Of a stretch of DNA of 64,000 nucleotides, positions 117 to 28,156 are shown in pieces. The notes below the pieces were generated by a model. That model saw only the letters and a list, made by a program, of their open reading frames with translations. It did not search any database and was not told where the DNA came from. Position 1 is the first letter of the stretch; each line of letters starts with the position of its first letter. The translations under genes and the position numbers were made by a program. Origin of the DNA: Escherichia phage ST2; the sequence record OM982647. The stretch is one strand, 5' to 3'.

Positions 117-365
117 TTACTTCAGGGTAATAACAAAATGACGTACTGCTTTACGAGCCGCAGAAGCCAAAGGCTTAGCATATTTCAGTTCATCTTTTGC
201 TTCCAGTTCAGAGGCCAATACAGCTTGGGCAGGGTTCAGATGTTTGAAATAACGCAGGATTTCCAATGCTTCGGCTTCAACATCAATAGATGCACCGTAG
301 TTTTCGTGACCATTATTCCATGCGTTTCGTTGCAGTTCAAGAGCGTGTTGTAATTGTTTAATCAT
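117..365 (-). CDS. rIII: rIII-like lysis-inhibition accessory protein (82 aa)
   Basis: 82-aa ORF directly downstream of gene 31 as in T4; length equals T4 RIII; TATAAATA late-promoter motif just upstream on the same strand. Confidence 0.55.
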   Translation of the reverse strand: MIKQLQHALELQRNAWNNGHENYGASIDVEAEALEILRYFKHLNPAQAVLASELEAKDELKYAKPLASAARKAVRHFVITLK

Positions 366-1188: not shown

Positions 1189-1759
1189 AAAAGTTTCGAA
1201 TTTGTTCCCAATTCAGAGAACGAAGATTATTACGAGAGTACTGAATTACTTCAATACCAGCTTGTTTTAGAATGTCGGCCCAATTTTCAGGAGATCTGTC
1301 ATATAATTCTGCGTATACAACCTTTTTAATACCTGACTGCGTAATAGCTTTAGTGCAATCAGGACACGGAGAAAGCGTAGTATATAACGTAGCACCTTCA
1401 ATAGAATTACCTTTACGAGCTGCAAACAAAATTGCATTCAATTCCGCATGGATTTCATTATTAGCAGACCATGCACTATGAGCGGCCCGATGTTCTTTAG
1501 CCAAAACAAAATTATCCACCCGTCCAAATGCTGTAGTGCCTTCTTTATGCCCAGCAACGATGACCGGGCTTGGTTTATTCTTCAACCAACCGTTTTCGGA
1601 TGCATGTTCGCAACAGTTTGTACCACCTGAAGGAGAGCCATTATAACCTGTAGAAATAATGCGTCCATCTTTTTCAATGACGGCACCAACTTTCCATGAA
1701 CAACATTTTGATTCTTGAGAAATCAGATATGCAATCTGAAGGTATGTGCTAGCTTTCAT
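1178..1759 (-). CDS. cd: dCMP deaminase
   Basis: 193 aa with cytidine/dCMP deaminase zinc motifs HAE...PCPDC (EIHAELNAI...SPCPDC); T4 cd position. Confidence 0.9.
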   Translation of the reverse strand: MKASTYLQIAYLISQESKCCSWKVGAVIEKDGRIISTGYNGSPSGGTNCCEHASENGWLKNKPSPVIVAGHKEGTTAFGRVDNFVLAKEHRAAHSAWSANNEIHAELNAILFAARKGNSIEGATLYTTLSPCPDCTKAITQSGIKKVVYAELYDRSPENWADILKQAGIEVIQYSRNNLRSLNWEQIRNFCGE

Positions 1760-2751
1760 TATTGAACCTTATTAATATAAGTTAACAGCTCTTTAGTTTG
1801 TTCCCAACTGATGCACGCATCGGTAATGGAAACGCCATAGGACATATTATCAGAAATTTTTTGATTTCCTTCATGTAGGAATGATTCTATCATAATTCCT
1901 TTGACCAAATCATTAGCTGCTAAATTTTTACCAATACCAATTTGATTGCTATAATGCCCATCAGCGTTTGCATGGCTACAGTCAACCATTACATAATGAT
2001 TCAGACCTACTGCCCTTGCTTTGTTAGAAGCTTCTTGAATATCAGAAGAATGATAGTTCGGGCCGTTGGTCCCGCCACGCAATACGATATGCGTATTCTG
2101 ATTACCTTCAGCTTCAACAATGCCTACAGTACCATCGACGTCCATACCCATATACCGATGAGGCCAGGCGGCACTATACATCGCGTCTGTAGCTACTTTA
2201 ATAGAACCATTGGTTGCGTTCTTGAAGCCTACGCACATCGGTAGACCTGAAGCAATTTCACGATGTGTCTGACTTTCAGTCGTACGGGCGCCAATAGCAA
2301 CCCATGAGAAAATACCAGAAAGATACTTAATCGTGAATGGGTCTAATACTTCAGTTGCTAATGGAAGTCCCATACGTAGAAGTTTACGACACAATGTTCG
2401 TGCAACTATAAGACCGTGGTTCATATCAAAACTTCCGTCAAGATATGGATCATTTACAAGACCTTTCCAACCTACGGTAGTTCGAGGCTTTTCAAAATAA
2501 ACGCGCATCACTAACAGAACATTAGGAAGACGAGTTTGAAGTTCAGCCAGACGTTTGCCGTATTCAACAGCAGCAATAGGGTCATGAATTGAACAAGGAC
2601 CTACAACAATAAGTTTGCGTGGGTCTTCACCATTCATAATCGAATTAACTTGTTCGCGATGAGAAGCCACTTGTGATGCGTAAGCTTCCGACAAAGGAAT
2701 AATCTCAGCCAGTTCTTTTGGAGAAATAAGTTTTCCGACGACAGGTAACAT
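1759..2751 (-). CDS. 3-deoxy-D-arabino-heptulosonate-7-phosphate (DAHP) synthase, class I alpha (AroG/AroF-like)
   Basis: 330 aa; LIVVGPCSIHD, VMRVYFEKPRTTVGWKGL, IGARTTESQ(T)HRE, GFKN motifs align with recalled E. coli AroG over the whole length. Confidence 0.85.
   Translation of the reverse strand: MLPVVGKLISPKELAEIIPLSEAYASQVASHREQVNSIMNGEDPRKLIVVGPCSIHDPIAAVEYGKRLAELQTRLPNVLLVMRVYFEKPRTTVGWKGLVNDPYLDGSFDMNHGLIVARTLCRKLLRMGLPLATEVLDPFTIKYLSGIFSWVAIGARTTESQTHREIASGLPMCVGFKNATNGSIKVATDAMYSAAWPHRYMGMDVDGTVGIVEAEGNQNTHIVLRGGTNGPNYHSSDIQEASNKARAVGLNHYVMVDCSHANADGHYSNQIGIGKNLAANDLVKGIMIESFLHEGNQKISDNMSYGVSITDACISWEQTKELLTYINKVQ

Positions 2752-3846: not shown

Positions 3847-3847
<1 letters not shown>
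3656..3847 (-). CDS. hypothetical small early protein
   Basis: 63-aa ORF abutting pseT start. Confidence 0.35.
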
Positions 3848-4933
<1,086 letters not shown>

Positions 4934-5290: not shown

Positions 5291-5515
5291 CTATTTTACT
5301 AAAGATTCAATATACTCATGAAGAGCTTTAGTCGCTACTGCCCACTTATTCTGATATTCATTTTTCAGATTAGCACGAGACTGAACTAACAAGCGGTCAT
5401 TAGTCGGAGGCAAAGATTCTAATCGTTGAATCTGGCGCCCATAAATCATAGCCGCCATTTCAGATTCATAGATAAGCCCTTTAATGTATTCATGCTGTTC
5501 TTTAGTCATTGGCAT
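5291..5515 (-). CDS. hypothetical protein
   Basis: 74-aa ORF. Confidence 0.4.
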   Translation of the reverse strand: MPMTKEQHEYIKGLIYESEMAAMIYGRQIQRLESLPPTNDRLLVQSRANLKNEYQNKWAVATKALHEYIESLVK

Positions 5516-5796
5516 TTTTCCTCTTTTAAACCACTACGATAATAACATATCATAGTCTTCTGGTCATGTACATATCTTTTTACGTCATTTAACCAGATAC
5601 GAAATTCTTGAGAGTCTTCAAACGGCATTCCAACCCATGGATTACCATCAATAACCTTTACTTGCCATTTCTGGTTATATTCAACAATAGATTCAGGCCA
5701 TGACGGATGTAAAGTTTCTTTAGGGCTTAAGGGCACATCCTGGGCACATCCAGCCAAAATGCCAATAGATAATACAACTGCGGTTAATTTAATCAT
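5506..5796 (-). CDS. putative o-spanin (outer-membrane lipoprotein)
   Basis: 96 aa with signal peptide and lipobox LAGC; immediately downstream of and overlapping (ATGA) the i-spanin-like ORF; T4 pseT.2 position. Confidence 0.55.
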   Translation of the reverse strand: MIKLTAVVLSIGILAGCAQDVPLSPKETLHPSWPESIVEYNQKWQVKVIDGNPWVGMPFEDSQEFRIWLNDVKRYVHDQKTMICYYRSGLKEEKCQ

Positions 5797-6149
5797 TCTG
5801 AGAGCTTCCTGAGGTCTTCTGCAAAGGAATCGAAGGACTTGTTGATTTGTTTTTCGACCAATCCTGGTTTACTTGCCACCACGTTCTTCTTCTTCGAATC
5901 CTTACGGAGCTTTTCATTTTCGGCCTTAAGTTGGTCAACTAAAACACGGTTCTTATAAGTCATTTCTTCGATTGACTGATATTGAACCTTGAAGTCGTCT
6001 AATACTTTAGCATTGTTTTTAGCGGTCTCTTTGACAGAAGCTAATTCAGTATTCAACGAATCAACTTTGTTGTTTAAGACAACTATTGTTACCGTAGAAA
6101 CTAGAGCAAAAGCTGCTACTATAGCATAAATCGGATTTACTTTAAGCAT
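5793..6149 (-). CDS. putative i-spanin (inner-membrane anchored, coiled-coil periplasmic domain)
   Basis: 118 aa; N-terminal TM helix IYAIVAAFALVSTVTIVVL then charged coiled-coil-like region; T4 pseT.3 position next to alc. Confidence 0.55.
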   Translation of the reverse strand: MLKVNPIYAIVAAFALVSTVTIVVLNNKVDSLNTELASVKETAKNNAKVLDDFKVQYQSIEEMTYKNRVLVDQLKAENEKLRKDSKKKNVVASKPGLVEKQINKSFDSFAEDLRKLSE

Positions 6150-6637
6150 GTTTTAATAATCTCAATGATTTCATCTCGGGATAATCCATTGATAAGAACG
6201 GTTTTCAAACCATCACACTGGATTTTGTACGATTCAAACAATACACACAACTCTTCTGCTGTATGATACGGACTTGAAATTCCGAGGCGGTTGAATTTGT
6301 CGGTAAGAGGGTCGCAAATAATGTAGAATTTTATACCTGCGATATGTACGTTTGGTTGACTAATATTAATGAACACATTAGCGTCATATTTAGTCAAATT
6401 GTTTTGAAGAAATTCTACCATGGCATTAACTGCTTCCGGCATTGCTTCACGTTTCTCTTCAGCGTATCGGGTGGAATACTCTTTTTGTTTTACTTTCTTT
6501 TTAAGATTTTTGGCCAGTGTAACACGTAGGTCAGTAAGATAACCAACTGGACGTCCTTTCTTAAAGACCCGGATTCCGTCAGTTGTATCTCCAAAAGCGG
6601 TTACGACCATATCGTTAGTAATCAATTGCATATTCAT
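6137..6637 (-). CDS. alc: Alc-like protein (blocks transcription of unmodified cytosine DNA)
   Basis: position between spanins and rnlA as in T4; start chosen at internal Met (MNMQLIT...) giving 166 aa, close to T4 Alc (167 aa); the track ORF extends to 6700. Confidence 0.6.
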   Translation of the reverse strand: MNMQLITNDMVVTAFGDTTDGIRVFKKGRPVGYLTDLRVTLAKNLKKKVKQKEYSTRYAEEKREAMPEAVNAMVEFLQNNLTKYDANVFINISQPNVHIAGIKFYIICDPLTDKFNRLGISSPYHTAEELCVLFESYKIQCDGLKTVLINGLSRDEIIEIIKTCLK

Positions 6638-6699
6638 AATTTTCTCCTCGTGTTGTTGATAAAAGCCATAGTAACACCTTCCTTGGTGTTTGTAAACCA

Positions 6700-7833
<1,134 letters not shown>

Positions 7834-7847
7834 TCAGTTAGTTTTTT

Positions 7848-7883
7848 TTAAATTGTACCACAATCCTTGTGGTGTGTAAACTA
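7848..7883 (-). promoter_or_regulatory. early sigma70-type promoter (GTTTAC -35, TACAAT -10) with palindrome CCACAAGGATTGTGG in the spacer, upstream of rnlA
   Basis: minus-strand reading GTTTAC-N17-TACAAT about 30 nt upstream of rnlA ATG. Confidence 0.4.
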
Positions 7884-8291
7884 CTTTTTCTTATGTTGGA
7901 TATTCCAAGGCGGGTTGAACTTTTTGATAAAAAGCGGTTCTTCAAGGTCCATTGTTGCGATGGTCATTGAACCAAGTTCGTTGGTGACTGAAAGGTCAAA
8001 ACATTGGCGGGCCCAGAATTCAACCTTTTTTCCTTGCATTAAGGCATCCAAAATCATAAGTGATTTTCTTGAATCTGAAGTCTGGTCTTTTCGATTTATG
8101 GCTGTTCGATAATAGTTAATGCGTTTCTTTAAATTCTTGGTTTTACCAATATACACAAGTTCGTCATCTATAGCAATAGCGTATATGACATTTTTCTTAT
8201 TAGGGACATCAACTGTTTTAATTGTTGCATCTTCTAATAGCTCCAATTCTGTATATTTAATAAAGGAATATTCGGCGGCAATATCTTTCAT
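7881..8291 (-). CDS. denA: endonuclease II
   Basis: 136 aa (same as T4 DenA); GIY-YIG-like VIYAIAIDDELVYIGKT...; position between rnlA and nrdB. Confidence 0.8.
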   Translation of the reverse strand: MKDIAAEYSFIKYTELELLEDATIKTVDVPNKKNVIYAIAIDDELVYIGKTKNLKKRINYYRTAINRKDQTSDSRKSLMILDALMQGKKVEFWARQCFDLSVTNELGSMTIATMDLEEPLFIKKFNPPWNIQHKKK

Positions 8292-8299
8292 AATAAAGT

Positions 8300-8313
8300 G
8301 GGACCGAAGTCCC
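8300..8313 (-). terminator. tetraloop hairpin GGGACttcgGTCCC between nrdB and denA
   Basis: perfect 5-bp GC-rich stem with UUCG-type loop on transcribed strand. Confidence 0.35.
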
Positions 8314-8317
8314 GTCC

Positions 8318-9493
8318 TTAGAAATATTTTTTGTATGAATTGATTACATTTTGGTCTACATCATTATCAATTTGTGCGACAAGATAAGAACTGATTTCAA
8401 CTTCCTGAGGAGCTGCTTGAACTAAATCAGAGTTCAGATATTCACGAATCCAAGGATACGGATGTTTGGTCGGAGCATCAGTGATTGGGCATGGCAAACC
8501 ACACTGTTTCATACGAGACACAGTCAAGTAATCAACAAAAGCACACATACTCTGCGTATTGATACCCGGACATGTACCATCTTTAAAGAGGTGTGCAGCC
8601 CATTCCTTCTCTTGTCTATTTACTTCCATAAAAATGTCAACTGCTTCTTGTTCACATTCTTTAGCAATTTGAACCCACTCATCACCATCGGTACCGGACT
8701 GAAGTTGACGGATAATGTACTGAGTACCCTTGAGGTGGAGTTGTTCGTCGCGAGCAATGAACTTCATAATCTTTGCATTACCTTCCATAATTTCCATATT
8801 TTTATGGAAGTTGAAAGTACATGCAAATGATACGTAAAAACGAATAGCTTCTAAGGCGTTGATAACATGCAAACAGAGATAAAGAGACTTCATTAAATCA
8901 CGCTTGGCGTTAAACATTATTTCTTCGTACATCTCAATATCATTCTGCTGGCATGAGCCTATTGAATACTCATAATTTTCCTTAGCATTTTCCCAATGAC
9001 GAGTCTTGACTAGAACATCATCATAATATTTGCCGATTGATTCCGCACGTTTCATAATTGCTTCATCTAATACAATCTCATCAAATACCTTCGATGGATC
9101 AGTATAAAGATTTCGCATGATATGAGTATATGAACGAGAGTGAATGGTTTCACTGAATGTCCATGTAGCAACCCATGTATCTAATGAAGGGTCGGAAAGC
9201 AATGCCATAAGTACCGCAGATGGTGCCCTGCCTTGGATAGAATCCAATAATGATTGATACTTAAGGTTGTTCGTAAAGATGTTCTGTTGGAACTGTGGAA
9301 GCTTATTGAACTGCGCAGAGTCCAACATCAAGTTTACCTCTTCAGGGCGCCAAAAAAACGACAATTGCTTTTCAATAAGCTCTTCAAAAACTTTATGGCG
9401 TTGAATATCGTAACGCGCCAGACCAAGACCGGAACCGAAGAACATTGGTTCATTCAAAACATCAACTTTTTGGGTATTAAAAACTGTACTCAT
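8318..9493 (-). CDS. nrdB: ribonucleotide reductase small (beta) subunit, intronless
   Basis: 391 aa continuous ORF with di-iron/tyrosyl radical class Ia R2 features; T4 position; no interrupting intron. Confidence 0.9.
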   Translation of the reverse strand: MSTVFNTQKVDVLNEPMFFGSGLGLARYDIQRHKVFEELIEKQLSFFWRPEEVNLMLDSAQFNKLPQFQQNIFTNNLKYQSLLDSIQGRAPSAVLMALLSDPSLDTWVATWTFSETIHSRSYTHIMRNLYTDPSKVFDEIVLDEAIMKRAESIGKYYDDVLVKTRHWENAKENYEYSIGSCQQNDIEMYEEIMFNAKRDLMKSLYLCLHVINALEAIRFYVSFACTFNFHKNMEIMEGNAKIMKFIARDEQLHLKGTQYIIRQLQSGTDGDEWVQIAKECEQEAVDIFMEVNRQEKEWAAHLFKDGTCPGINTQSMCAFVDYLTVSRMKQCGLPCPITDAPTKHPYPWIREYLNSDLVQAAPQEVEISSYLVAQIDNDVDQNVINSYKKYF

Positions 9494-9543
9494 TATATTC
9501 TCTCAATAGTGACTCATCCATGAGTCAATTATAAACAAAATTC

Positions 9544-11799
9544 TTAAAGCTTACAAGCGGAGCAATCTTCAGCTTTAGGCGTTTCTAACTCATAGTCATC
9601 TGTACCAGAACCATCTCGAGTGTTATGATAGTAAAGGTTCTTACCACCAAAGTACCAGAAGTAAAGCAAGTCATCAAGCATTACAGACATTGGCACTTTG
9701 CCTTTCTCAAAGACTGAAGGGTCGTAGTATGTATTAGCAGAAGCAGATTGGCACACCCATTTTAACATGATAACAACTTGTGTCAGATAAGGCTTATTAC
9801 CTTTCTTAGCGAGTTTCCACGCATAGTCATAAAGACCCATGTTGTGTTCAATATTAGGAACTACTTGACGGAAATTACCTTCTTTAGATTCTTTAATACT
9901 TACTGGGCCACGAGGTGGTTCAATACCATTTGTGCTATTTGAGACCTGGCTGCTTGATTCGCATGGCATGAGAGCACTGAGTGTACTGTTACGAATCCCG
10001 TGTTCTTTAAGTTCGGCTCGTAGTTCTTCCCAATCACATACATAGTTTGGGGCTGCGATTTGGTCAATCTTTTTATTGTACCAGTCGATAGGTAATTCGC
10101 CTCGAGACCATTTAGTGTCTGAATAATACTCGCAACGTCCTTTTTCTTTGGCAAGTTTGATTGACGCTTTGATAAGGCCATATTGTAATCTCTCAAACAA
10201 TTCATGAGTCAAATCGTTAGCATCTTCATATGAAGCAAAGTTAGAAGCTAACCAGGCTGCATAGTTAGTAACACCAACACCTAGGTTTCGACGCTTTTTA
10301 GCTTTTAAAGCTTCTGGAACCGGATAATCTTGATAGTCTAACAAGTTATCAAGTGCACGTACTTGCACTTCAGCAAGTTCATTAATTTTATCTTGGTCTT
10401 GCCAATCAAATTTATCAAGAACAAAAGCAGAAAGAGTGCAAAGTCCAATTTCTGCGTCAGGACTATTAACATCATTAGTTGGAATAGCTATTTCACAACA
10501 TAGATTGCTCTGACGAATAGGAGCTTTTTCACGAATAAATGGAGTGTAGTTATTTGTGTTATCAACAAACTGTGGATAAATTCGAGCAGTGCCAGAACGT
10601 TCAGTCATGAACAATTCAAAGAGTTCTAGTGCTTTGATTCTTTTCTTTCTGATTGTTGGATCTTTTTCAGCTTTCTCATAAAGCTCACGGAATTTATCTT
10701 GATCTTCAAAGAACGAGTAGTATAGTTCGCCTGACATTTCGTGAGGGCTAAATAAAGTAATATAATCATTTTTACCAAGGCGTTCCATCATAAGGTCATT
10801 AATCTGAATTCCGTAGTCCATATGTCGAATACGGTTTTCATCCACGCCTTTGTTATTTTTCAGAACTAATAGGTTCTCTACTTCTAAGTGCCACATCGGA
10901 TAATACGCTGTAGCAGCACCGCCACGAATACCACCTTGAGAACAAGATTTTACTGCAGTTTGGAAATGTTTCCAGAATGGAATAACACCCGTATGTCGAA
11001 CTTCACCCATACCGATCTTAGAACCTTCCGCACGAAGCATACCAACGTTGATACCGATACCAGCTCGTTTAGAAATATATTCGATAATTGATGCTGAAGT
11101 TTTGTTAATAGATTTTAACGAATCACCAGCTTCAATAACTACACAACTAGAGAACTGGCGAGTCGGAGTACGAGCACCTGCCATAATTGGAGTAGGCAAT
11201 GAAACTTGATGAGTAGAAACGGCATCATAAAAACGAATAATATGTTTCAAACGGTCACGAGTTTCGTCTTGATGTAAAGCCATGCCAATAGCCATAATAG
11301 CAAACTGTGGAGTTTCATAAATCTTCCCAGTTGTTTTATCTTTAACTAGATATTTTTCTTTAAGCTGCATAGCGCCAGCATAAGTCAGGTCAAAGTCTCG
11401 TTCATGTTTAATCTGTGAATCGAGATAAATGATTTCTTCTGCAGAATATCTAGACAACAACTCAGGGTCGTATTTGCCTTCATTAACACAATAAGAAATA
11501 TGGTCGATAAAAGCAGGCGGTTCAAACTGCCCATATACATCTTTACGAAGTGCAAACATTAGCCCTTTGGCGGCGACATACTGATAATCAGGTTCTTCGA
11601 CAGAAATCGAGTTAGCTGCAACTTTAATACAAATCTTCTGGATATCTTTGGTGCTCATCCCATCAACAAGATGGGTCTTAATTTCTTCGTACAATTCATA
11701 TGGGTCAATTTGTGTTCCTTCACATTGCCAAGTTAATACTTGAATAATTTTCTGTGCATCAAAATTTTGGGATACACCACTGCTCTTAGTTACTTGCAT
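9544..11799 (-). CDS. nrdA: ribonucleotide reductase large (alpha) subunit
   Basis: 751 aa class Ia R1-like; C-terminal CxxC tail; T4 NrdA about 754 aa. Confidence 0.95.
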   Translation of the reverse strand: MQVTKSSGVSQNFDAQKIIQVLTWQCEGTQIDPYELYEEIKTHLVDGMSTKDIQKICIKVAANSISVEEPDYQYVAAKGLMFALRKDVYGQFEPPAFIDHISYCVNEGKYDPELLSRYSAEEIIYLDSQIKHERDFDLTYAGAMQLKEKYLVKDKTTGKIYETPQFAIMAIGMALHQDETRDRLKHIIRFYDAVSTHQVSLPTPIMAGARTPTRQFSSCVVIEAGDSLKSINKTSASIIEYISKRAGIGINVGMLRAEGSKIGMGEVRHTGVIPFWKHFQTAVKSCSQGGIRGGAATAYYPMWHLEVENLLVLKNNKGVDENRIRHMDYGIQINDLMMERLGKNDYITLFSPHEMSGELYYSFFEDQDKFRELYEKAEKDPTIRKKRIKALELFELFMTERSGTARIYPQFVDNTNNYTPFIREKAPIRQSNLCCEIAIPTNDVNSPDAEIGLCTLSAFVLDKFDWQDQDKINELAEVQVRALDNLLDYQDYPVPEALKAKKRRNLGVGVTNYAAWLASNFASYEDANDLTHELFERLQYGLIKASIKLAKEKGRCEYYSDTKWSRGELPIDWYNKKIDQIAAPNYVCDWEELRAELKEHGIRNSTLSALMPCESSSQVSNSTNGIEPPRGPVSIKESKEGNFRQVVPNIEHNMGLYDYAWKLAKKGNKPYLTQVVIMLKWVCQSASANTYYDPSVFEKGKVPMSVMLDDLLYFWYFGGKNLYYHNTRDGSGTDDYELETPKAEDCSACKL

Positions 11800-11886
11800 A
11801 TATTCCTCAGTATAGGTTGATAGACATTACTCCAAACGGGATAGTATTTATCCCGTTAATTTATTATACACTTTTAAACTGAAGCG

Positions 11887-12141
11887 TTAATTATCCTCAG
11901 CAATAATTTCTTTATATTCTTTAGGAGTCAAGACCGTGATATCGAAATAAACCAATGGTTCTTTTTCCATACCGTAACCACCACAAAATTCACGATATTC
12001 ATAAATTCGTTCGTGTGAATGACAAATGAATCGTTCACCTTTAACTGTGATTTCACTATTCGGTGAAGGGATATCTAGTTCGGTAGGATTTTTCATTTCA
12101 AAAATTGTGGTGCCATATGAATTAATAAAACGTAAAATCAT
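11887..12141 (-). CDS. hypothetical protein (nrdA.1-like position)
   Basis: 84-aa ORF between nrdA and td. Confidence 0.4.
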   Translation of the reverse strand: MILRFINSYGTTIFEMKNPTELDIPSPNSEITVKGERFICHSHERIYEYREFCGGYGMEKEPLVYFDITVLTPKEYKEIIAEDN

Positions 12142-13852
<1,711 letters not shown>

Positions 13853-13857
13853 TTTTA

Positions 13858-13905
13858 TTTGATAGGGCTACTATAACATAGCCCTATCTTGTTATAAACT
13901 ACTTT
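13858..13905 (-). promoter_or_regulatory. early promoter-like element with inverted repeat GATAGGGCTA/TAGCCCTATC around the -10
   Basis: minus strand GTTTAT-N17-TTATAGT. Confidence 0.35.
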
Positions 13906-14291
13906 TTAAAAGTTTTTTGCAAAAGTTCGATGATTTCGTCGACGTTGGTTTCATCTACGATACAATGGATTTTTGTTACACCTAAAGTTATACCTTCGTT
14001 AGAAGGTTGAGGCTTTACTAAATCTACCTCAGTAAAGTATTTGAACTCGTCAGGATAAATCTCAAAATAAGTTTCAATTTCACCACCGGCAGAACATACA
14101 GTACCATCTTCCATAGTTACACTTACTACGTTTGACGTATCGCTATCATAATCAGGTTCCATTCCGTTTACAACAAAACTAGGCCCGTGGAGTTCAATCA
14201 ATTTTAACATCTTAGCGTTATTGTGTGGTGCTTCTTGAACAAAGTCATCTTTAAATAAAGGGTTAATGATATAAGATTTTCCGATTTCCAT
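13899..14291 (-). CDS. hypothetical protein
   Basis: 130-aa ORF. Confidence 0.4.
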   Translation of the reverse strand: MEIGKSYIINPLFKDDFVQEAPHNNAKMLKLIELHGPSFVVNGMEPDYDSDTSNVVSVTMEDGTVCSAGGEIETYFEIYPDEFKYFTEVDLVKPQPSNEGITLGVTKIHCIVDETNVDEIIELLQKTFKK

Positions 14292-14307
14292 TTTGATTTC
14301 CTCATGT

Positions 14308-14352
14308 TGTTGATAAGTCTATACTAACACATCCAGGGAAGAAGTAAACAAC
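14308..14352 (-). promoter_or_regulatory. early promoter-like element (GTTTAC -35, TAGTAT -10)
   Basis: motif read on minus strand upstream of ORF 13899..14291. Confidence 0.35.
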
Positions 14353-14380
14353 TTTTTAGGCAATTTACAGATACTCAAAA

Positions 14381-14399
14381 GGGAGACCGAAGTCTCCCG
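14381..14399 (-). terminator. rho-independent terminator hairpin GGGAGACttcgGTCTCCC plus U-run downstream of gene 32
   Basis: 7-bp stem, UUCG-type loop, TTTTGAG follows on minus strand. Confidence 0.55.
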
Positions 14400-14404
14400 A
14401 TTTA

Positions 14405-15304
14405 TTATAGACCAGCTAACAGGTCATCGAGGTCGCCATCATCAGAGGATGAGGTAGAGCTCATGAAGTCGTCTTCAGTTTTTGCAGAACTAAAGGCTTC
14501 CATGTCTTTATCAAAATCGTCAAGGTCAGAAGCAACTTTATCTGCAACAGAAGCTGCGGCTGCTGCACCACCAAGAGCGGCAGTACCAAGAACCTTAGCG
14601 AAAGATTCATTTAATTTTTCAAAGGATTTAAACTGGTCTTTAGCCGTCAAAGTAGTAAGATCTACCATCTGGTCATATAGTTCTTTCTGGAATGCTTCAT
14701 CATTAATACGAGGAATTTCAGATTGACCCAAGAATTTAGATTCATCATAGTTGCTAAAACCGGAAACCTGCTTAGCTTTCAGAACGAAGTTAGCACCTTC
14801 AAACGGACAAGTAACATCAACTGGAGTTTCACCCATTTCGGTATCAACTGCAATCATTGCATTGATTTTGTCCCAAATCTTTTTACCGAAACGATATTTA
14901 AATACTTTACCTTCGTTATCTGGAGCTTGAGGGTCTTTAACAACCAGAATATTAGCCCAATAAGAAGTTTTACGTTTCAGTTGAGAATATTCATTTTTGT
15001 TGGTATTGTACAGGTCATTTTTACTAATGTACTGACATACAGGACAAGAGTCGTAATCACCGTGTGTAGAAGAGCAATTTTCAATATACCATTTACCATT
15101 TTTCTTGAAACCATGGTTAACAAGAATTGCAAATGGTAGTGCATCATCAGTTTTTGCTGGCAAGAAACGAATTACCGCTTGACCATTACCTGATGCATCT
15201 AGCTTCAGCTTCCATTCGCCTTTATCTTCTGAAGAGAAACCTTTGTTACCGTTCAGTTTAGCCATTTGAGCAGCGAGGTCAGCAGTAGATTTACGTTTAA
15301 ACAT
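14405..15304 (-). CDS. 32: single-stranded DNA-binding protein gp32
   Basis: 299 aa; [36 protein letters not shown]..., zinc site [11 protein letters not shown], acidic Ser/Asp-rich C-terminus; matches T4 gp32. Confidence 0.95.
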
Positions 15305-15373
15305 TATATTTACCTTTATTTAGATTATTTAATTTATTTACAGTTGGTTGCTACGACACTTATACCTCGTAGC
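15305..15373 (-). promoter_or_regulatory. gene 32 translational operator: hairpin/pseudoknot GCUACGAgguauaaguguCGUAGC followed by A/U-rich unstructured leader
   Basis: perfect 7-bp inverted repeat and reiterated UAAAUAA motifs between the hairpin and the gene 32 AUG, as in the T4 autoregulatory site. Confidence 0.5.
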
Positions 15374-15383
15374 TGGTACGATT

Positions 15384-27496: not shown

Positions 27497-28156
27497 ATGG
27501 CAACACCAAAAGTGTCATTTTCGCCTAGTGATATTCTATTTGGGTTGCTAGATCGTATTTTCAAAGATAACGCTACTGGAAAGGTTTTAATGTCTCGAGT
27601 AGCGGTAATTATTCTTTTGTTCCTAATGGCACTAATATGGTACAAAGGAAGTATTTTGCTGGATTATTATGTAAGAGCTAAGTATGATACTTATACTGAA
27701 ATAATCCAAAAAGAACGAGCTTTACGTTTTGAATCTGCGGCTCTAGAACAACTGCAAATAGTTCATATCTCATCTGGTGCAGATTTTAGTGCTGTGTATT
27801 CTTTCAGACCTAAAAACTTAAATTATTTCGTCGACCTTATAGCTTATGAAGGCAAACTACCTAGCACAATTTCTGAAAAGTCCCTTGGCGGATTCCCGGT
27901 GGATAAAACGGCTAATGAATATATAATTCATTTAAGTGGCCGTCATTTCTCATCTAAATCAGAATTTGCATTTTTGCCTACAAAATCTAAGACCGCCGAA
28001 CTTTCTTATATGTATAGTTGCCCATACTTTAATTTGGATAACATCTACGCTGGAACTGTGACGATGTATTGGTATAAGGGGAATAATATACTTGAGGAGG
28101 AACGCTTAGCGGCTATATGCAACCAAGCGGTCCGAATACTAGGAAGGGCTAAATAA
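27497..28156 (+). CDS. t: holin T
   Basis: 219 aa; single TM (VAVIILLFLMALIWY) and large periplasmic domain; strong match to recalled T4 T (218 aa). Confidence 0.9.
   Translation: MATPKVSFSPSDILFGLLDRIFKDNATGKVLMSRVAVIILLFLMALIWYKGSILLDYYVRAKYDTYTEIIQKERALRFESAALEQLQIVHISSGADFSAVYSFRPKNLNYFVDLIAYEGKLPSTISEKSLGGFPVDKTANEYIIHLSGRHFSSKSEFAFLPTKSKTAELSYMYSCPYFNLDNIYAGTVTMYWYKGNNILEEERLAAICNQAVRILGRAK

What the first reader, a model, noticed from the sequence alone, without database searches (positions are those of the whole stretch)
5506..6149. Two-component spanin pair recognisable from topology alone, far from the holin
A 118-aa protein with one N-terminal TM helix and coiled-coil-like periplasmic domain is followed, with a 4-nt ATGA overlap, by a 96-aa lipoprotein with lipobox LAGC. 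This matches the i-spanin/o-spanin architecture and the T4 pseT.3/pseT.2 location, whereas the holin t is 21 kb away on the other strand.
Basis: partly seen in the sequence, partly recalled or inferred. Interest (0 to 1): 0.2.

Follow-up and report, generated by a model that had tools for sequence, protein, structure and literature searches.

The report
Known T4-type spanin gene pair
These two small overlapping genes are the RB69/T4-type spanin pair (pseT.3 and pseT.2), which breaks the host's outer membrane in the last step of phage lysis. It is already catalogued in the literature and annotated in databases, so the finding is correct but ordinary.

Summary
On the minus strand, 5793..6149 encodes a 118-aa protein with one N-terminal transmembrane helix and a helical, heptad-patterned periplasmic domain. 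5506..5796 encodes a 96-aa lipoprotein precursor with lipobox ILAG|C17. The two genes share a 4-nt ATGA overlap.

The window is an RB69-like Mosigvirus. It is 99.4% identical to phage PhAPEC2 and 98.7% to RB69 over this stretch. In RB69 the same genes are named pseT.3 and pseT.2 and annotated as "Rz-like spanin". They match PHROG spanin families (E 5e-35 and 4e-43) and T4 PseT.3 (48% identity) and PseT.2 (70% identity).

They also show the family's cysteine pattern. The i-spanin has no Cys. The o-spanin has two C-terminal Cys, C84 and C95, which align with the essential T4 C87 and C98. Gene order rnlA-alc-pseT.3-pseT.2-pseT.1...pseT is conserved. Holin t lies at 27497..28156 on the plus strand, 21.3 kb away.

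Kongari et al. 2018 showed that T4 pseT.3/pseT.2 complement lambda Rz/Rz1 amber mutants. They list RB69 and PhAPEC2 in both T4 spanin families.

The parts
5793..6149 (-). i-spanin gene (pseT.3 orthologue), 118 aa. It has an N-terminal transmembrane domain, a long helix alpha1, a short linker and helix alpha2, and no cysteines.
   Evidence: ORF. phrog_739 'Rz-like spanin' E 5.5e-35, full length. 48% identity to T4 PseT.3, E 3e-33. 99% identical to RB69 pseT.3. AlphaFold2 single-sequence model has mean pLDDT 85, with helices 6-87 and 96-117.
6075..6131 (-). Codons for the transmembrane helix of the i-spanin (residues 7-25, IYAIVAAFALVSTVTIVVL).
   Evidence: Kyte-Doolittle 19-residue mean of 2.56. 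It is the only hydrophobic segment in the protein.
5793..5796 (-). ATGA overlap of the i-spanin stop (TGA) and the o-spanin start (ATG), which fits translational coupling.
   Evidence: Sequence read. The same 4-nt overlap occurs in 11 of the 12 compared T4-like phages once starts are corrected. Vibrio phage VmeM-32 is the exception, with a 13-nt overlap.
5506..5796 (-). o-spanin gene (pseT.2 orthologue). The precursor is 96 aa and the mature lipoprotein is 80 aa.
   Evidence: ORF. phrog_812 'Rz-like spanin' E 4.2e-43. 70% identity to T4 PseT.2, E 5e-52. 98% identical to RB69 pseT.2.
5746..5796 (-). Signal peptidase II signal sequence (residues 1-17), ending in the lipobox L14-A15-G16-C17 (5746..5757). 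Cys17 is the lipidated first residue of the mature protein.
   Evidence: PROSITE-type lipobox pattern match at residues 7-17. Cys17 is invariant in the 12-phage alignment A2. Residue +2 is Ala, not Asp.
5512..5547 (-). C-terminal segment of the o-spanin carrying Cys84 (5545..5547) and Cys95 (5512..5514). These are the counterparts of T4 PseT.2 Cys87 and Cys98.
   Evidence: Alignment with T4. Both Cys are conserved in 11 of 12 phages. Both T4 Cys are essential for lysis (PMC6139136).
27497..28156 (+). Holin gene t, the unlinked functional partner, 219 aa.
   Evidence: phrog_860 holin E 1.4e-102. It follows the gp37 and gp38 tail-fibre genes, as in T4.

Best explanation
The two genes encode the two-component spanin of an RB69-like T-even phage (Mosigvirus) and are orthologues of T4 PseT.3 and PseT.2.

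Shown from the sequence:
- The 118-aa protein has a single N-terminal hydrophobic helix. The rest of it forms a long heptad-patterned helix (alpha1), a short K-P-G linker and a second helix (alpha2).
- The 96-aa protein has a lipoprotein signal peptide with lipobox ILAG|C and no Asp at +2.
- The genes are coupled by an ATGA overlap.

Inferred from experiments on T4 and lambda:
- The i-spanin is anchored in the inner membrane with its helical domain in the periplasm.
- The o-spanin is lipidated at Cys17 and sorted to the inner leaflet of the outer membrane.
- The two proteins bind through their C-terminal regions into a complex that spans the periplasm through the peptidoglycan mesh. The complex is held inactive by that mesh.
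- Holin T triggers and the endolysin degrades the peptidoglycan. The complexes can then move laterally, oligomerise and undergo a conformational collapse that fuses the inner and outer membranes. This removes the last barrier to virion release.
- The i-spanin has no Cys, so the homotypic covalent link has to come from the o-spanin's Cys84 and Cys95. In T4 these are thought to isomerise from an intramolecular disulfide to two intermolecular ones.
For: - Anatomy.
- Family profiles: phrog_739 (E 5.5e-35) and phrog_812 (E 4.2e-43), both labelled 'Rz-like spanin'.
- Orthology to T4 PseT.3 and PseT.2: E 3e-33 and 5e-52.
- Near-identity to RB69 pseT.3 and pseT.2, annotated 'Rz-like spanin'.
- Conserved synteny between rnlA/alc and pseT.1/pseT.
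- In a 12-phage alignment the lipobox Cys is invariant, the two C-terminal Cys are nearly invariant, and the K-P-x-L-V-E-K-Q-I-N motif of the i-spanin is conserved.
- Published experiments: T4 pseT.3/pseT.2 complement lambda Rz am/Rz1 am, C87S and C98S are lysis-defective, and RB69 and PhAPEC2 are listed as members of both T4 spanin families (PMC6139136).
Against: - There is no direct functional data for this phage's alleles.
- No Pfam or NCBIfam model covers them. Pfam gave only sub-threshold coiled-coil hits for the i-spanin and nothing for the o-spanin, and NCBIfam gave nothing for either.
- No related solved structure exists.
- The o-spanin single-sequence model is unusable, with pLDDT 48.6.
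- No late-promoter consensus TATAAATA lies within about 9 kb upstream on the coding strand. The timing of expression cannot be read from the sequence.
- The membrane-fusion step has been demonstrated only for lambda Rz/Rz1.
Confidence: 0.96

Rival explanations
1. The pair is a membrane protein plus lipoprotein with a non-lysis job, such as superinfection exclusion or receptor blocking in the manner of the Cor/Llp lipoproteins or T4 Imm/Sp. On this reading it only resembles spanins in topology.
For: - The genes lie in a region of early and nucleic-acid-metabolism genes (rnlA, alc, pseT), far from t.
- No late-promoter consensus lies nearby.
- A sigma70-like site precedes rnlA at 7880..7852.
Against: - The pair is orthologous to T4 PseT.3/PseT.2, which functionally replace lambda Rz/Rz1 (PMC6139136).
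- The essential Cys pair is conserved.
- The same unlinked location is the norm for the whole T4 spanin family.
Confidence: 0.02
2. The pair is a genuine spanin that also has a second, earlier role in infection, for example envelope remodelling or a contribution to lysis inhibition. This would explain why it is embedded in an apparently early transcription unit.
For: The only support is promoter context, and it is weak. There is no TATAAATA upstream and a sigma70-like site lies before rnlA. rIII (117..365) is 5 kb away on the same strand.
Against: - No data point to a second role.
- Spanins are inert until the peptidoglycan is removed, so early synthesis needs no special explanation.
- The promoter scans are consensus matches and were not enriched over shuffles.
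Confidence: 0.02

Closest known systems
RB69 pseT.3 (NP_861924.1) and pseT.2 (NP_861923.1), and the same genes in phage vB_EcoM_PhAPEC2
   Same: - They are essentially the same genes. The DNA is 98.7% identical to RB69 and 99.4% to PhAPEC2 over 1.2 kb.
- The proteins are 99% and 98% identical to RB69's.
- Lengths (118 and 96 aa), the 4-nt overlap and the neighbouring genes are all the same.
- 100% identical proteins exist in other deposited phages.
   Different: Only a few substitutions separate them. Against RB69 these are K104R in the i-spanin, and S32Q and I83L in the o-spanin.
T4 PseT.3 / PseT.2, the type members of the 'separated' T4 spanin families (Kongari et al. 2018; first proposed by Summer et al. 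2007)
   Same: - The TMD-alpha1-linker-alpha2 i-spanin has no Cys.
- The lipoprotein o-spanin has two C-terminal Cys.
- The ATGA overlap is present.
- The location between alc and pseT.1, unlinked to t and e, is the same.
   Different: - Identity is 48% for the i-spanin and 70% for the o-spanin.
- The o-spanin is 3 residues shorter in the linker and first-strand region, so the Cys numbering is 84/95 instead of 87/98.
Lambda Rz / Rz1
   Same: - The functional class is the same. An inner-membrane type II protein with a coiled-coil periplasmic domain is paired with an outer-membrane lipoprotein.
- The i-spanin gene comes first.
- The T4 pair can replace Rz/Rz1 in lambda.
   Different: - The gene architecture is separated (4-nt overlap), not embedded.
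- The i-spanin has no cysteines.
- The o-spanin is larger, is predicted to be structured (beta-alpha-beta in T4) and has no penta-proline stretch.
- The genes are not in a lysis cassette with the holin and endolysin.

Membership tests
Two-component spanin (functional class) | i-spanin has a single N-terminal transmembrane domain, with the bulk of the protein on the periplasmic side | tested here: met
   There is one hydrophobic segment, residues 7-25, with a Kyte-Doolittle mean of 2.56 and nothing comparable downstream. It lies within the continuous helix 6-87 of the model. The N-in/C-out orientation is inferred, not measured.
Two-component spanin (functional class) | The periplasmic domain of the i-spanin is helical with coiled-coil propensity | tested here: met
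   The AlphaFold2 model has helices 6-87 and 96-117, with pLDDT above 90 for residues 21-80. The a/d heptad pattern in residues 27-87 is reached by 2 of 2000 shuffles.
Two-component spanin (functional class) | o-spanin has a signal peptidase II signal with a lipobox Cys and an outer-membrane sorting signal (no Asp at +2) | tested here: met
   VVLSIGILAGC matches the PROSITE-type lipobox pattern. The mature N-terminus is C-A-Q-D, so +2 is Ala. Cys17 is invariant in 12 phages.
Two-component spanin (functional class) | The i-spanin gene lies immediately upstream of, overlapping, or embedding the o-spanin gene | tested here: met
   There is a 4-nt ATGA overlap with the i-spanin first.
Two-component spanin (functional class) | Loss of either gene blocks lysis at the outer-membrane step when divalent cations stabilise the outer membrane, and the two proteins form a complex | not testable with these tools
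   This needs genetics and biochemistry. It has been done for lambda. For T4 it was done by complementation (PMC6139136).
T4 PseT.3 i-spanin family | Full-length sequence homology to T4 PseT.3 | tested here: met
   BLASTP gives 48% identity over 108 residues, E 3e-33. phrog_739 matches at E 5.5e-35 over residues 1-117. RB69 and PhAPEC2 are listed as family members.
T4 PseT.3 i-spanin family | There are no periplasmic cysteines, and the periplasmic domain consists of alpha1, a short linker and alpha2 | tested here: met
   The protein has no Cys. The model shows H6-87, a break at 88-95 and H96-117. This matches the description in PMC6139136.
T4 PseT.2 o-spanin family | Full-length sequence homology to T4 PseT.2 | tested here: met
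   BLASTP gives 70% identity over 99 columns, E 5e-52. phrog_812 matches at E 4.2e-43.
T4 PseT.2 o-spanin family | Two conserved C-terminal cysteines (T4 C87 and C98), both essential | tested here: met
   C84 and C95 align with T4 C87 and C98. They are conserved in 11 of 12 phages. Essentiality was shown only in T4.
T4 PseT.2 o-spanin family | The mature protein has a beta1-alpha-beta2 organisation | tested here: inconclusive
   The single-sequence AlphaFold2 model has mean pLDDT 48.6. Its elements (E46-49, E52-55, H63-75, E84-86, E93-95) roughly fit the expected layout but are not reliable.
T4 spanin locus | Position between alc and pseT.1/pseT, unlinked to holin t and endolysin e | tested here: met
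   The neighbours are rnlA 6700..7824, alc 6137..6700, pseT.1 5291..5515 and pseT 3847..4746. T4 and RB69 have the same order. Gene t is at 27497..28156 on the plus strand. No T4 e homologue is in the window.
Lambda Rz/Rz1 family | Embedded gene architecture, Cys-containing i-spanin and proline-rich unstructured o-spanin | tested here: not met
   The overlap is only 4 nt. The i-spanin has no Cys. The 79 residues after the lipid-modified Cys contain 6 Pro and no poly-Pro run. The pair therefore works like Rz/Rz1 but is not a member of that sequence family.

The most novel reading that the evidence does not exclude
The spanin pair may be transcribed with the early genes rnlA and alc rather than from a late promoter. 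It might then have an additional pre-lysis role in the envelope, such as superinfection or lysis-inhibition physiology. The evidence here does not exclude this, but the only support is the lack of a nearby TATAAATA motif.
Probability: 0.03. Interest if true: 0.3.

Novelty: already known. Interest (0 to 1): 0.05.

Why it matters
It matters little beyond correct annotation. The call confirms that a reader working from topology alone can recover a spanin pair that is unlinked to the rest of the lysis genes. Many deposited T4-like genomes still label these genes 'hypothetical protein' or give them wrong start codons. The biology itself has been published since 2007-2018. That includes the separated T4-type spanins, the Cys-free i-spanin, the two essential Cys in the o-spanin and the location far from t and e.

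Tried and rejected
- Pfam and NCBIfam: no family reaches threshold for either protein. The i-spanin gets only sub-threshold coiled-coil or DUF hits. Homology rests on PHROGs and direct comparison with T4 and RB69.
- PDB sequence search: nothing meaningful, best E about 0.5.
- AlphaFold2 on the o-spanin as a single sequence: pLDDT 48.6, so it was not used and no fold search was run. Alignments built from phage-record loci could not be submitted to the predictor. I judged the capped large-database protein searches unnecessary for an already annotated gene pair.
- Promoter search: there is no exact TATAAATA on the minus strand between 6150 and 15383. The one-mismatch hits and the single relaxed MotA-box hit are uninformative. 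Sigma70-like hits are not enriched over shuffles, at 23 against 18.1 +/- 4.0. Expression timing is left open.
- Other ORFs in 5506..6149: 5789..5938 on the minus strand (49 aa, TTG) and 5989..6129 on the plus strand (46 aa, TTG) are short alternative-frame ORFs inside the spanin genes. I treated them as spurious.

Full report
**Observation.** On the minus strand, the ORF listing gives an ATG ORF of 118 aa at 5793..6149 and an ATG ORF of 96 aa at 5506..5796. The junction on the coding strand reads ...TCA GAA TGA overlapping ATG ATT AAA. The i-spanin stop and the o-spanin start therefore share ATGA at 5793..5796. A Shine-Dalgarno-like AGGAAG lies 8 nt upstream of the second ATG.

The 118-aa protein has one hydrophobic stretch. 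The best 19-residue Kyte-Doolittle window is residues 7-25, IYAIVAAFALVSTVTIVVL, with a mean of 2.56. The protein has no cysteine.

The rest of that protein is helical. A single-sequence AlphaFold2 model (mean pLDDT 85) gives one helix from residue 6 to 87, a break at 88-95 (K-N-V-V-A-S-K-P) and a second helix at 96-117. Residues 27-87 have hydrophobic residues at 65% of a/d heptad positions against 14% elsewhere, which only 2 of 2000 shuffles reach.

The 96-aa protein matches the PROSITE-type lipoprotein pattern at residues 7-17 (VVLSIGILAGC). Its mature N-terminus is C-A-Q-D, so there is no Asp at +2. Further Cys residues lie at positions 84 and 95.

The holin gene t is at 27497..28156 on the plus strand (phrog_860, E 1.4e-102). 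It lies directly after the gp37 and gp38 tail-fibre genes, 21.3 kb from the spanin pair.

**What the window is.** A 1.2-kb stretch around the finding is 99.4% identical to Escherichia phage vB_EcoM_PhAPEC2 and 98.7% to RB69 (genus Mosigvirus). It matches 210 phage records in all.

In the RefSeq RB69 record the corresponding genes are pseT.3 and pseT.2, both with the product 'Rz-like spanin'. They have the same lengths and the same 4-nt overlap. The gene order there is rnlA - alc - pseT.3 - pseT.2 - pseT.1 - two small ORFs - pseT.

The window has the same neighbours:
- rnlA at 6700..7824 (PF09511/PF20819).
- alc within 6137..6700 (PF17527, E 1.6e-42). The annotated RB69 start corresponds to 6631.
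- pseT.1 at 5291..5515.
- pseT at 3847..4746 (PNKP domains).

**Homology.** The i-spanin matches phrog_739 ('Rz-like spanin') at E 5.5e-35 over its whole length. The o-spanin matches phrog_812 at E 4.2e-43.

Against T4, the i-spanin is 48% identical to PseT.3 (E 3e-33) and the o-spanin is 70% identical to PseT.2 (E 5e-52). Window C84 and C95 align with T4 C87 and C98.

tblastn finds 996 phage records for the i-spanin and 1169 for the o-spanin, including 100% identical copies. Pfam and NCBIfam have no model for either protein, and no related structure has been solved.

**Conservation across T4-like phages.** I took the locus from eleven other phages:
- RB69
- T4
- Bp7
- Edwardsiella PEi20
- Erwinia Gravdalen
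- Enterobacter fGh-Ecl01
- Klebsiella Roth20
- Escherichia MIZ2
- Aeromonas Asswx_1
- Citrobacter IME-CF2
- Vibrio VmeM-32

Several deposited start codons cut off the transmembrane helix or the signal peptide, and I corrected them. After correction every i-spanin has an N-terminal hydrophobic segment and every o-spanin has a lipobox. The 4-nt overlap is present in 11 of the 12 phages including the window, and VmeM-32 has a 13-nt overlap.

In the o-spanin alignment, M1, C17, P31, P34, S62, R66 and W68 are invariant. C84 and C95 are present in 11 of 12 sequences.

In the i-spanin alignment, the K-P-x-L-V-E-K-Q-I-N-x-S-F motif at the linker/alpha2 boundary is the conserved core. In that call the window row lacks its initiator Met because I trimmed the wrong end, so the positions printed there are one lower than the true ones.

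**Published knowledge.** Kongari et al. 2018 (PMC6139136) report the following:
- T4 PseT.3 has two periplasmic helices joined by a very short linker, and only alpha1 is coiled-coil-prone.
- PseT.2 is a beta1-alpha-beta2 lipoprotein.
- The genes are 'separated' in architecture and lie far from t and e.
- pseT.3/pseT.2 complement lambda Rz am/Rz1 am.
- C87S and C98S in PseT.2 abolish lysis.
- A disulfide-linked PseT.2 dimer forms only when PseT.3 is present.
- RB69 and vB_EcoM_PhAPEC2 are listed in both the T4 i-spanin family (40 members) and the T4 o-spanin family (47 members).

The paper's reference list cites Summer et al. 2007 on Rz/Rz1 equivalents.

**Mechanism.** The following is shown from the sequence: the topology signals, the lipobox, the outer-membrane sorting residue, the helical heptad-patterned periplasmic domain, the coupled genes and the conserved Cys pair.

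The rest is inferred from work on T4 and lambda:
- The i-spanin sits in the inner membrane and the lipidated o-spanin in the outer membrane.
- They bind through their C-terminal regions and thread the peptidoglycan.
- Holin T triggers and the endolysin removes the peptidoglycan. The freed complexes then oligomerise and collapse, fusing the two membranes.
- Covalent homodimerisation must come from the o-spanin Cys pair, because the i-spanin has none.

**Rival explanations.** One rival is a non-lysis membrane-protein/lipoprotein pair. Another is a spanin with an extra early role. Both rest only on the genomic context and on the lack of a TATAAATA late promoter within about 9 kb upstream on the coding strand. 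A sigma70-like site lies before rnlA at 7880..7852, but such sites were not enriched over shuffles. Orthology to experimentally validated proteins outweighs these points.

**Verdict.** The feature is an already known and already annotated member of the T4 spanin families, and interest is low.

Noticed in passing
window 1759..2751 (-): A 330-aa DAHP synthase (PF00793 E 4.3e-75; phrog_5045 phospho-2-dehydro-3-deoxyheptonate aldolase) sits between cd and cd.2. RB69 has no gene at this spot. The stretch is 100% identical in PhAPEC2 and matches 145 phage records in all, mostly Escherichia and Shigella phages. It is a known, already annotated auxiliary metabolic gene.
   Followed up: partly
window 117..365 (-): An 82-aa ORF matches the rIII lysis-inhibition accessory protein (phrog_1457, E 3.9e-43). 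It is another lysis-related gene on the same strand, about 5 kb from the spanins.
   Followed up: partly
L011 827..1509 (Vibrio phage vB_VmeM-32) and L009 827..1500 (Aeromonas phage Asswx_1): The cysteine pattern is swapped in distant relatives. The VmeM-32 o-spanin lacks both C-terminal Cys, while its i-spanin has two C-terminal Cys (118 and 126). Asswx_1 has a Cys pair in both subunits. This suggests the homotypic disulfide requirement can move between subunits within one family.
   Followed up: no
L004 1551..1844, L005 1554..1853, L008 710..1482, L010 878..1204: Deposited annotations of the spanin pair in PEi20, Gravdalen, MIZ2 and IME-CF2 have wrong start codons. In PEi20 and Gravdalen the o-spanin starts inside the signal peptide. 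In MIZ2 and IME-CF2 the i-spanin starts after the transmembrane helix. In MIZ2 the o-spanin is extended about 40 codons upstream. In-frame upstream starts restore the transmembrane helix in MIZ2 and IME-CF2, and the signal peptide and 4-nt overlap in PEi20 and Gravdalen. The MIZ2 o-spanin instead needs an internal downstream start.
   Followed up: partly
window 6150..15383 (-), and 7852..7880 (-): There is no exact T4 late-promoter motif TATAAATA on the coding strand for about 9 kb upstream of the spanin genes. A sigma70-like site (TTTACA-17-TACAAT with TG) precedes rnlA. The promoter that drives the spanins is not evident from the sequence.
   Followed up: partly
window 5506..5515 (-): pseT.1 has two candidate ATG starts. 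The one at 5515 overlaps the o-spanin by 10 nt. The one at 5509 gives an ATGA overlap, is the start used in RB69, and has better spacing from the GAGGA Shine-Dalgarno sequence.
   Followed up: no
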